A DNA stretch of 64,000 bases from Eimeria praecox (taxonomy: Eukaryota), in contig OY986949.1 in assembly GCA_963920595.1 (NCBI GenBank), positions 1,736,001-1,800,000 on the forward strand, read 5' to 3'. Shown piece after piece: positions 34,761 through 37,700 of the stretch. A model generated the notes under the pieces. It made no database searches. It was not told the origin of the DNA and saw nothing but the letters and a program-made list of their open reading frames with translations. A program made the position numbers and the translations under genes. Numbering within the stretch: the stretch's first letter is position 1; every line of letters begins with the position of its first letter.

Positions 34761-37700
34761 ATGCTGGCGGAAGATCAGAACGTCCCCTCTGCTAGTAGCG
34801 AAGATGTTCCTTCACCTACATCGAACAAGCCAATAAAGGTGAGATAAACCCTAAACCCTAAACCCTAAACCCTAAACCCTTAATAACACACTATCTGGAG
34901 ACACGCGTGTGTTGTCTTGTTTGAGGGGTGAGAGCTGTGGTGTGTATCGGTGGTTTAGGGTTTGAAGCTAGGGTTTAGGGTTTATAATTAGGGTTTAGGG
35001 TTTAGAGAAACGAGTTGAGCAGAGATTTGCGTATAACACCTTCTCTAGTGTAGTAGAACAGTTTAGGGTTTAGGGTTTAGGGTTTAGGGTTTAGGGTTTA
35101 GGGTTTGTGTGTATCTTCCTACGATAACAGACAATAGCTGCACAGCTGTAAGGCTCTTGAGCTCCTCAGGGTTTAGGGTTTAGGGTTTGGGGTTTAGGGT
35201 TTAGGCTTTAGGGTTTAGGGTTTGTTTGTATATATCCCTCTCCACAGTTCTGCGGCTTCTCAAATATAATATCAGGAGTTGCACTCTGTAGTTTAGGGGT
35301 ATTCGCCGTCAAGCGTTTAGGGTTTAGGCTCTAGGGTTTAGGGTCTAGGGTCTAGGGTTTAGGGTTTAGGGTTTAGGGTTTAGGGTTTAGGGTTTAGGGT
35401 TTAGGGTTTAGAGTTGGCAGCAGTTGTTTGTATATAGTCCTCAAACAACAAGCAATAGCATCACAGTAGAAGAGCCCACGTGCGTTTCTCTTGTGTAGGG
35501 TTTAGGGTTTCGAATCTAGGGTTTAGCTAGGGTTTAGCTAGGGTTTAGGGTTTAGCTAGGGTTTAGGGTTTAGCTAGGGTTTAGGGTTTGTTGTTTGTAG
35601 TCCTACGATAATAAACAATGGCTGCATAGCCGAGGGGCTCGAGAGATTCGTATATTATGCGAGTATTTAGAAGTGCGAGATTGTGTAGGGTTTGTCTTGT
35701 GTAGGGTTTAGGGTTTAGCTAGGGTTTAGCTAGGGTTTAGGGTTTAGGGTTTAGCTAGGGTTTAGGGTTTGTTGTTTGTAGTCCTACGATAATAAACAAT
35801 GGCTCCATAGCCGAGGGGCTCGAGAGATTCGTATATTATGCGAGTATTTAGAAGTGCGAGATTGTGTAGGGTTTGTCTTGTGTAGGGTTTAGGGTTTAGC
35901 TAGGGTTTAGCTAGGGTTTAGGGTTTAGCTAGGGTTTAGGGTTTAGGGTTTGTTGTTTGTAGTCCTACGATAATAAACAATGGCTGCATAGCCGAGGGGC
36001 TCGAGAGATTCGTATATTATGCGAGTATTTAGAAGTGCGAGATTGTGTAGGGTTTGTCTTGTGTAGGGTTTAGGGTTTAGCTAGGGTTTAGCTAGGGTTT
36101 AGGGTTTAGCTAGGGTTTAGGGTTTAGGGTTTGTTGTTTGTAGTCCTACGATAATAAACAATGGCTGCATAGCCGAGGGGCTCGAGAGATTCGTATATTA
36201 TGCGAGTATTTAGAAGTGCGAGATTGTGTAGGGTTTGTCTTGTGTAGGGTTTAGGGTTTAGCTAGGGTTTAGCTAGGGTTTAGGGTTTAGCTAGGGTTTA
36301 GGGTTTAGGGTTTGTTGTTTGTAGTCCTACGATAATAAACAATGGCTGCATAGCCGAGGGGCTCGAGAGATTCGTATATTATGCGAGTATTTAGAAGTGC
36401 GAGATTGTGTAGGGTTTGTCTTGTGTAGGGTTTAGGGTTTAGCTAGGGTTTAGCTAGGGTTTAGGGTTTAGCTAGGGTTTAGGGTTTAGGGTTTGTTGTT
36501 TGTAGTCCTACGATAATAAACAATGGCTGCATAGCCGAGGGGCTCGAGAGATTCGTATATTATGCGAGTATTTAGAAGTGCGAGATTGTGTAGGGTTTGT
36601 CTTGTGTAGGGTTTAGGGTTTAGCTAGGGTTTAGCTAGGGTTTAGGGTTTAGCTAGGGTTTAGGGTTTAGGGTTTGTTGTTTGTAGTCCTACGATAATAA
36701 ACAATGGCTGCATAGCCGAGGGGCTCGAGAGATTCGTATATTATGCGAGTATTTAGAAGTGCGAGATTGTGTAGGGTTTGTCTTGTGTAGGGTTTAGGGT
36801 TTAGCTAGGGTTTAGCTAGGGTTTAGGGTTTAGCTAGGGTTTAGGGTTTAGGGTTTGTTGTTTGTAGTCCTACGATAATAAACAATGGCTGCATAGCCGA
36901 GGGGCTCGGGAGATTCGTATATTATGCGAGTATTTAGAAGTGCGAGATTGTGTAGGGTTTGTCTTGTGTAGGGTTTAGGGTTTAGCTAGGGTTTAGCTAG
37001 GGTTTAGGGTTTAGCTAGGGTTTAGGGTTTAGGGTTTGTTGTTTGTAGTCCTACGATAATAAACAATGGCTGCATAGCCGAGGGGCTCGGGAGATTCGTA
37101 TATTATGCGAGTATTTAGAAGTGCGAGATCGATTGAGAGATAATAAAATATTTTCTTCTTTTGTTTTTTTTGGGAGCGCAAGAGCGATGAGTAGACAAAC
37201 ATGGGAGAACAGGTTAGATCTATTTTATTCTATTTTATTTTATTTTAGTTTAGTTTAGTTTAGTTTATTTTGTTTTGTTTTATTTTATTTTATTTTATTT
37301 TGTTTTATTTTATTTTGTTTTGTTTTGTTTTGTTTTATTTTATTTTATTTTATTTTGTTTTATTTTATTTTAGTTTTGTTTTGTTTTGTTTTGTTTTATT
37401 TTGTTTTATTTTGTTTTGTTTTATTTTATTTTATTTTATTTGATTTTATTTTGTTTTGTTTTATTTTATTTTATTTTATTTTGTTTTATTTTGTTTTGTT
37501 TTGTTTTGTTTTGTTTTGTTTTGTTTTATTTTATTTTATTTTATTTTGTTTTATTTTATTTTAGTTTTGTTTTGTTTTGTTTTGTTTTATTTTGTTTTAT
37601 TTTGTTTTGTTTTATTTTATTTTATTTTATTTGATTTTATTTTGTTTTGTTTTATTTTATTTTATTTGATTTGATTTGATTTTATTTTGTTTTGTTTTGT

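What the first reader, a model, noticed from the sequence alone, without database searches (positions are those of the whole stretch)
35490..37212. Nine-fold tandem amplification of a splice acceptor plus exon start, with units separated by telomere-like repeats, inside the LOG gene
Seen: a 181-bp unit of TTTAGGG/TTTAGCTAGGG spacer, an intact TTGTTTGTAG acceptor and codons for SYDNKQWLHSRGAREIRILCEYLEVRD. Only copy 9 completes the exon. Exon 1 ends in phase 0, so the spliceosome faces nine equivalent acceptors. Inference gives three outcomes. (a) Copies 1-8 are skipped. (b) A proximal acceptor is used and read-through hits a TAG in the spacer, making a copy-number-tuned NMD rheostat. (c) The internal GAA/GTGCGA donor (e.g. 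35673) turns each unit into a 72-nt phase-0 cassette exon plus a 109-nt GT-AG intron, giving a LOG enzyme with 0-8 extra copies of a 24-aa N-terminal segment. Outcome (c) would be intron/exon birth caught in the act.
Basis: partly seen in the sequence, partly recalled or inferred. Interest (0 to 1): 0.88.

Follow-up and report, generated by a model that had tools for sequence, protein, structure and literature searches.

The report
Splice junctions amplified inside parasite introns
In a coccidian parasite gene, the end of an intron plus the start of the next exon is copied nine times in a row (a real DNA array that sequencing runs also hold), with decayed older copies beside it and similar copied splice junctions in two neighbouring genes; the extra copies are likely spliced out as part of a growing intron rather than used as a regulatory switch.

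Summary
The array is real. Nine acceptor-plus-exon-start copies lie 181 bp apart in intron 1 of an intact type-II LOG gene. The copy-to-copy junction stands in public contigs of two samples, at about 10 times the depth of its flank in one. No RNA run of this organism was found, so the splicing outcome is untested.

Two decayed older copies of the same exon start lie upstream, both with an in-frame stop. The eIF3h gene carries nine extra copies of an exon end plus donor, and SCO1 a copied acceptor that has lost its AG. That makes 3 of 14 modelled introns.

Best reading (0.6): recurrent repeat-driven duplication of splice junctions. The copy attached to the complete exon is used and the rest become intron, as in human CBS 844ins68. 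A cassette ladder stays possible (0.15), because the internal donor scores like real ones. A hypomorphic gene is also possible (0.2). A selected NMD rheostat is unlikely (0.03).

The parts
34761..34838 (+). LOG exon 1 (26 codons, phase 0 end, donor AAG|GTGAGA)
   Evidence: matches the N-terminus of coccidian homologues P0025, P0026, P0030, P0031
35105..35165 (+). Relic R1: decayed older copy of intron end + exon-2 start; AG lost, TGG>TAG stop at codon 7
   Evidence: z=12.1 vs shuffles, 0 of 2734 control windows reach its score; protein-level z=9.0
35424..35489 (+). Relic R3: decayed older copy; acceptor AG kept, same TGG>TAG stop at codon 7
   Evidence: z=5.2, 0 of 2734 controls; protein-level z=5.4
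35490..35600 (+). Original intron end: telomere-like spacer and acceptor of copy 1; left breakpoint of the unit near 35489
35601..37048 (+). Eight 181-bp units: 81 nt exon-2 start, 13-nt junction insert, TTTAGGG/TTTAGCTAGGG spacer (9 TAGGG words), acceptor; candidate internal GT at +72 (phase 0) and +89 (phase 2); read-through stop at +108
   Evidence: junction in public contigs
37049..37212 (+). Copy 9 = complete LOG exon 2 (164 nt, phase 2 end, donor CAG|GTTAGA)
   Evidence: 83% identity to P0025 and P0030; model
38554..38728 (+). LOG exon 3
   Evidence: gene model aligned to homologues
39456..39893 (+). LOG exon 4 (GGGPG, FFTRK, PGGxGTxxE motifs)
   Evidence: PF03641 E=3.4e-19
40415..40759 (+). 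LOG exon 5 to the stop codon
59994..60690 (-). Mirror case: eIF3h exon-1 end + donor (GAG|GTATTA, exon ends 60661) followed by nine extra ~35-nt copies between TTTAGGG runs; 7 of 9 keep GT
   Evidence: gene identity
24396..24430 (+). Third case: single relic of the SCO1 acceptor + exon start at 24626, 3 mismatches in 35 nt, one of them the G of the AG
   Evidence: gene identity

Best explanation
This is a young tandem amplification of an intron-exon junction inside an intact LOG gene, likely the latest round of a recurring repeat-driven process in which exon 1 is likely still spliced mainly to copy 9 and copies 1-8 are likely removed as part of a longer intron.

Shown: the array, its presence in two samples, two decayed older copies, and duplicated junctions in eIF3h and SCO1.

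Inferred, origin: a template-switch or end-joining event next to the telomere-like run made the first copy (the junction carries a 13-nt insert that repeats the sequence just past the left breakpoint), and unequal exchange multiplied it.

Inferred, splicing: the spliceosome defines the exon across acceptor 9 and the real donor 164 nt away, while G-triplet spacers after acceptors 1-8 disfavour them. Some leak to unproductive or cassette forms is expected. Extra copies later lose their AG/GT or gain stops and become ordinary intron sequence.
For: The array is real in DNA. The gene is intact: 399 codons, one stop, catalytic motifs present, 78 of 82 columns invariant in 12 homologues kept.

Older copies R1 and R3 decayed with in-frame stops while the true exon stayed conserved. 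R3 still has its AG, so an upstream decoy acceptor has been tolerated for a long time. eIF3h, an intact translation-factor gene model, carries nine extra donor copies whose use would bring in a stop right after the real donor. The SCO1 relic lost its AG.

13 of 14 modelled introns exceed 250 nt, the range where the site nearest across the exon is favoured in human data (PMC9225289, passages). In CBS 844ins68 the distal of two duplicated acceptors is strongly favoured, and G runs between them promote it (PMC2630376, PMC7490669, PMC1802585, passages). Each spacer here has 9 TAGGG words and exon 2 has none.
Against: No RNA evidence at all. The exon-definition and G-run rules come from human cells and are untested in coccidia. 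PMC9225289 reports that the upstream 3' site preference is reduced, not shown reversed, for long-long exons. The internal donor scores 5.8, above 9 of 14 modelled real donors. All 12 relative-rate comparisons lean towards faster change in this LOG, 2 of 12 at p<0.05, which could mean relaxed selection. Predicted RNA accessibility does not single out acceptor 9. Gene models and the 14-donor matrix rest on homology and reading frame only.
Confidence: 0.6

Rival explanations
1. Damaged gene: a proximal acceptor (copy 1 or relic R3) is used much of the time or intron 1 is retained, so most transcripts stop after about 62 codons. The array persists because LOG is dispensable or a small amount suffices.
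For: Classical proximity rule for duplicated 3' sites (as described in PMC9225289). Unproductive isoforms are common in Toxoplasma and Plasmodium (PMC8561664, passages). Slight rate excess in this LOG. The array is too young for the ORF to show decay.
Against: The ORF and 78 of 82 invariant sites are intact despite older decoys. eIF3h tolerates an older array. The CBS precedent favours the distal site.
Confidence: 0.2
2. Cassette ladder: the GAA|GTGCGA site turns units into 72-nt in-frame exons with 109-nt introns in an appreciable share of mRNAs, adding 1-8 copies of a 24-aa segment that maps onto the hexamer-forming alpha-1 helix of type-II LOG.
For: Phase and sizes are correct. Donor score is within the real range; only 12 of 162 exonic GT sites score as high. 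The acceptor and exon sequence are native. Extra copies would sit N-terminal to an intact core. Both substitutions in the copied coding part are synonymous, though only one bears on copies that are not the functional one. The segment aligns, weakly, to residues 40-64 of chain 5wq3_A, matching alpha-1 Asp46-Leu64 in PMC5379747.
Against: The same site must be ignored in copy 9. A competing GT at +89 (phase 2, score 4.5) would break frame or delete part of the core. 0 of 167 homologues with the segment carry it in tandem; 6 have two copies about 300 aa apart, as in double-domain proteins. Earlier copies acquired stops.
Confidence: 0.15
3. Selected rheostat: copy number tunes the share of premature-stop transcripts removed by NMD.
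For: Depth ratios allow different copy numbers in the two samples (about 11 in X2; 9-26 in X3). Read-through does hit a stop.
Against: The copy-number difference is within the uncertainty of the X3 baseline. NMD core proteins are not needed to degrade nonsense transcripts in P. falciparum (PMC10449492, abstract). Similar duplications sit in unrelated housekeeping genes. No sign of conservation was found.
Confidence: 0.03
4. Assembly artefact: one true copy expanded by the assembler.
For: Copies are almost identical. X1 and X2 may be the assembly's own sample.
Against: The junction contig is present in X2 and in the separate sample X3 at many times the depth of other contigs, and the majority allele at 37090 is the copy 1-7 type.
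Confidence: 0.02

Closest known systems
Human CBS c.844_845ins68 polymorphism
   Same: Tandem duplication of an intron end plus exon start (52 + 16 nt), creating identical acceptors. The distal one is used, normal mRNA results, and G runs between the sites promote this (PMC7490669, PMC2630376, PMC1802585; passages seen; the primary paper Romano 2002 not seen).
   Different: Two acceptors there, nine here. Here 81 exon nt are copied with an in-phase internal GT, the spacers are telomere-like repeats, older relics lie beside it, and the outcome is unmeasured.
Human CBS 31-bp VNTR c.1444_1467+7(16_21)
   Same: A many-copy tandem array spanning an exon end and donor, as its coordinate name shows (PMC2630376, passages); the counterpart of the eIF3h array here.
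   Different: It is a donor array, not an acceptor array. Telomere-like spacers are not mentioned in the passages seen. Its splicing effects are recalled, not read.
Intron gain by tandem genomic duplication (Rogers model)
   Same: A tandem duplication supplies splice sites; the 'imprecise' form adds coding sequence (PMC3443670, passages).
   Different: The model duplicates an exonic AGGT. Here an existing acceptor is duplicated with intron sequence, and no new intron is shown.
Eimeria repeat-rich bands of CAG and TTTAGGG repeats
   Same: The window has both repeat types throughout (PMC9131526 passages).
   Different: The passages seen describe simple repeats, not amplified splice junctions.
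Type-II LOG phosphoribohydrolases (CgLOGII, Tt1465)
   Same: Best solved relatives of homologue P0030; PGGxGTxxE motif and N-terminal alpha-1 segment present.
   Different: Activity and oligomeric state of the coccidian protein are untested.

Membership tests
Duplicated intron-exon junction with distal acceptor use (CBS 844ins68 type) | Tandem copy contains intron end, AG and exon start | tested here: met
Duplicated intron-exon junction with distal acceptor use (CBS 844ins68 type) | Duplication exists in genomic DNA | tested here: met
   back-joint of 181 in 3 of 4 runs laid, two samples
Duplicated intron-exon junction with distal acceptor use (CBS 844ins68 type) | G runs between the duplicated acceptors | tested here: met
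   9 TAGGG per spacer, 0 in exon 2; presence only, function untested
Duplicated intron-exon junction with distal acceptor use (CBS 844ins68 type) | Distal acceptor used, normal mRNA made | not testable with these tools
   no RNA run of the organism among 24 listed; no protein of this species in three homologue searches
Intron gain by tandem genomic duplication | Duplicated exonic segment with an AGGT proto-splice site | tested here: not met
   the unit spans an existing acceptor; the candidate donor is GAA|GTGCGA
Intron gain by tandem genomic duplication | New intron removed in transcripts | not testable with these tools
   no RNA
Tandem cassette or mutually exclusive exon array | Each copy has a usable in-phase donor | tested here: inconclusive
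   score 5.8, real range 0.0-8.1 from only 14 modelled donors; competing phase-2 GT at 4.5
Tandem cassette or mutually exclusive exon array | Copies kept under coding selection or conserved in relatives | tested here: not met
   older copies carry stops; 0 of 167 homologues show the tandem segment; the young copies are too alike to test
Type-II LOG | PGGxGTxxE motif and catalytic Arg/Glu | tested here: met
   motif and FFTRK present in the model; motif definition in PMC5379747
Type-II LOG | Extra N-terminal alpha-1 helix | tested here: inconclusive
   weak alignment (2.9-4.7 bits) of the homologue's segment to the alpha-1 region of 5wq3_A and 5zi9_A
Type-II LOG | Hexamer and phosphoribohydrolase activity | not tested
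   no fold, complex or assay run

The most novel reading that the evidence does not exclude
In this coccidian genome the telomere-like UUUAGGG runs are both the engine and the insulator of intron growth. They seed repeated amplification of neighbouring splice junctions (3 of 14 introns here), act as G-run signals that let the spliceosome ignore the decoys (54 G-strand versus 0 C-strand words in the last 100 nt of 14 introns), and in the LOG array let a share of mRNAs take in 72-nt cassette exons, so that exon and intron birth can be watched in a living lineage.
Probability: 0.15. Interest if true: 0.8.

Novelty: new variant of a known kind. Interest (0 to 1): 0.5.

Why it matters
It is a natural splice-site choice experiment in an apicomplexan: nine identical acceptors in one gene and ten near-identical donors in another. 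One RT-PCR or long-read run would show whether these parasites pick sites across the exon or across the intron; the review passages searched held neither term (PMC6381282). A marker SNP separates copies 1-7 from 8-9, so short reads can answer part of it. It also suggests a concrete route by which repeat-rich coccidian introns grow, by copying and burying exon edges, and it warns annotators of decoy exons. If skipping is confirmed, the LOG array itself is a near-neutral VNTR and a possible strain marker.

Tried and rejected
Whole-genome survey: no genome is held for this window, so frequency rests on 14 modelled introns in 4 genes.

RNA evidence: the 6 RNA rows are marine metatranscriptomes with shares of 0.05-0.09, and the rows of other organisms have shares of 0.11-0.16. 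Only one of these (X4) was laid, and it did not cover the exon start.

Left-flank depth and relics in the public runs were not obtained, so the single-copy baseline for X3 is uncertain (copy estimate 9-26) and the relics are seen in the assembly only. X1 depths are sums over overlapping contigs and were not used for copy number.

Three of five intron-1 segments tested as relics were not significant against exon 2 at DNA level (near 34890, 35003-35064, 35221-35312). Two of them resemble R3 (z 4.1 and 4.4), and 35221-35312 is borderline as protein (p=0.047); they are not counted.

The idea that the present junction is old and shared with the relics was rejected: no segment matches the junction tail better than window controls. 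RNA structure as the selector of copy 9 was rejected (unit fold z=-2.07).

The exon-side boundary test flagged 4 of 28 boundaries at p<0.01. Two are clear (LOG intron 1 acceptor, SCO1 intron 2 acceptor) and two marginal ones were dropped (scores 18 vs 16 and 16 vs 13). It missed the eIF3h array, where only about 12 exon bases are copied (p=0.15); that case rests on the alignment. MAR, SRAP, IMCp and the long ORF at 28346-32113 were not modelled.

Literature searches for such arrays in Eimeria and for general partial-exon duplications listed no report. The library lacks most subscription papers, and supplements were not read. Earlier scan findings: none.

Full report
Observation. Window 35601-37129 holds nine copies of an acceptor plus 81 nt of exon start at 181-bp spacing (TRF period 181, 8.8 copies, 98%). 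Copies 3-7 are identical, copy 2 has one synonymous change, and copies 8 and 9 share another. Only copy 9 continues into the full 164-nt exon. Exon 1 ends in phase 0. Read-through from copies 1-8 stops after 36 codons. The GT at +72 would give a 72-nt exon and a 109-nt intron.

Gene. Five exons (34761-34838, 37049-37212, 38554-38728, 39456-39893, 40415-40759) give one open frame with GT-AG introns. Exon 4 matches PF03641. The closest named homologues are from Cyclospora and Eimeria; the best BLAST match to the model is an unnamed protein at 65%. The best solved relatives of homologue P0030 are LOG phosphoribohydrolases. The copied 24-aa segment aligns weakly to the region that PMC5379747 (passages) describes as the hexamer-forming alpha-1 helix of type-II LOG. 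The model keeps 78 of 82 columns that are invariant in 12 homologues. It leans slightly fast in all 12 relative-rate tests, 2 at p<0.05. The organism is read as an Eimeria-like coccidian from these hits and from its CAG and TTTAGGG repeats; it was not identified further.

Is it real? Of 24 runs listed, three hold half or more of the words, all of one organism, from two samples and two studies. None of the three is on record as RNA. On a one-unit stretch (36949-37216) a contig going back exactly 181 bases appears in X1, X2 and X3, but not in X4, another organism. In X2 it has depth 3737 against 384.5 for the flank beyond 37174. In X3 it has 606 against 25-49 for seven other listed contigs. Both junction contigs carry the copy 1-7 allele at 37090. 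The assembled array predicts a ratio of 7.8, so X2 suggests about 11 copies and X3 9-26, depending on the baseline. These are rough: contig depth is one figure per contig, X1 and X2 may be the assembly's own sample, and X3 may be the same laboratory strain.

How it arose (inferred). The junction reads exon +81, a 13-nt insert, then the intron sequence from about 35489. The insert repeats the 12 bases just past that left breakpoint. This is the signature of template switching or templated end joining (established knowledge, recalled). The block pattern of the A/G marker (copies 1-7 versus 8-9) fits later unequal exchange.

Of five unique segments between the telomere-like runs of intron 1, two are older copies of the same exon start: R1 (35105-35165, z=12.1) and R3 (35424-35489, z=5.2). 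None of 2734 control windows reaches either score, and both hold at protein level (z=9.0 and 5.4). Both have TGG>TAG at codon 7. R1 has lost its AG and R3 keeps it. So this junction has been duplicated before, those copies decayed, and the true exon stayed conserved.

The habit is wider. On the minus strand an eIF3h gene has its exon-1 end and donor followed by nine extra ~35-nt copies between TTTAGGG runs. They are more diverged than the LOG units, and 7 of 9 still have GT. In SCO1 a 35-nt copy of an acceptor and exon start lies 217 nt upstream of the real one, with three mismatches, one of them the G of AG. That is 3 of 14 modelled introns in 4 genes. The formal exon-side test caught two of the three and flagged two marginal cases that I dropped. 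The models are from homology and frame, not RNA.

Which acceptor is used (untested)? For skipping: 13 of 14 introns exceed 250 nt, where human data favour the site nearest across the exon, although for 3' sites the upstream preference is reported as reduced rather than reversed (PMC9225289, passages). Only copy 9 has the real donor close by. The nearest known case, human CBS 844ins68, duplicates 52 intron and 16 exon bases; the distal acceptor is strongly favoured and normal mRNA results (PMC7490669 and PMC2630376, passages; PMC4479818, one passage). G runs between the two sites promote that choice (PMC1802585, passage citing Romano 2002). Each spacer here has 9 TAGGG words and exon 2 has none. 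The eIF3h and SCO1 cases and the relics all fit the rule 'use the site attached to the complete exon'.

For cassettes: on a matrix from 14 modelled donors the +72 site scores 5.8, above 9 of the 14 real ones, and only 12 of 162 exonic GT sites match it. Against cassettes: the same site sits in copy 9, a phase-2 GT at +89 scores 4.5, no homologue among 167 has the segment in tandem, and earlier copies gained stops.

For a damaged gene: the classical proximity rule and frequent unproductive splicing in Toxoplasma and Plasmodium (PMC8561664, passages). A tuned NMD rheostat lacks support: NMD core proteins are not needed to degrade nonsense transcripts in P. falciparum (PMC10449492, abstract). Predicted accessibility does not differ between the nine acceptors.

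Comparison and novelty. It works like CBS 844ins68 (acceptor) and, for eIF3h, like the CBS 31-bp VNTR c.1444_1467+7(16_21) (donor; named in PMC2630376). The defining outcome, distal use, could not be tested. It is not the exonic-AGGT model of intron gain by tandem duplication (PMC3443670, passages). Searches listed no report of such arrays in coccidia, within a library that lacks most subscription papers; supplements were not read. What is new is the copy number, the layered relics, the recurrence across genes, and the link to telomere-like runs.

Verdict. Real; a new variant of a known kind. Probabilities: mainly skipped 0.6, damaged gene 0.2, appreciable cassette ladder 0.15, selected rheostat 0.03, artefact 0.02. 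Interest 0.5: probably near-neutral, but a ready-made and cheap test of splice-site choice in an apicomplexan.

Noticed in passing
window 59994-60690 (-): eIF3h exon-1 end plus donor amplified to ten copies between TTTAGGG runs; the two copies that lost GT both have T>G at +2.
   Followed up: partly
window 24396-24430 (+): Relic of the SCO1 acceptor and exon start at 24626 with AG changed to AT.
   Followed up: partly
14 modelled introns of LOG, SCO1, TRM112, eIF3h: Telomere-like words in the last 100 nt of introns are all in the G-strand sense (54 TAGGG in 8 introns, 0 CCCTA); in the first 100 nt they are mixed (19 vs 37). This may point to a role in acceptor definition.
   Followed up: partly
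same 14 introns: Modelled donors are very degenerate (GTCCCT, GTTTGT, GTAAAC, GTATTA), with 4-7 of 9 matches to the recalled U1 consensus.
   Followed up: partly
window 37029-37069: The LOG acceptor can fold into a hairpin with the exon start (-8.7 kcal/mol), third most stable of 14 acceptor windows; identical in all copies.
   Followed up: partly
window 4017-4971: 27-bp unit repeated 35 times at 99% identity, just after an IMC-protein-like ORF on the minus strand: another very young array.
   Followed up: no
window 48643-49092: Cluster of palindromic AGGTGTATATACACCT-like units; similar words recur singly across the window.
   Followed up: no
window 9086-14442 (-): Microneme adhesive repeat (MAR, PF10564) domains in three ORFs.
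   Followed up: no
window 49394-50941 (+); 43836-45054 (+); 28346-32113 (+): SRAP-domain gene, TRM112 gene, and a 1256-codon ORF with no family above cut-off.
   Followed up: no
P0001-P0024: Many 450-620 aa homologues from unnamed and eukaryotic transcript sources look like tandem double-LOG proteins; six show two alpha-1-like segments about 300 aa apart.
   Followed up: no
P0026: The Cyclospora LOG model lacks the 21 or so residues that correspond to the exon-2 start, probably a mis-chosen acceptor in annotation.
   Followed up: no
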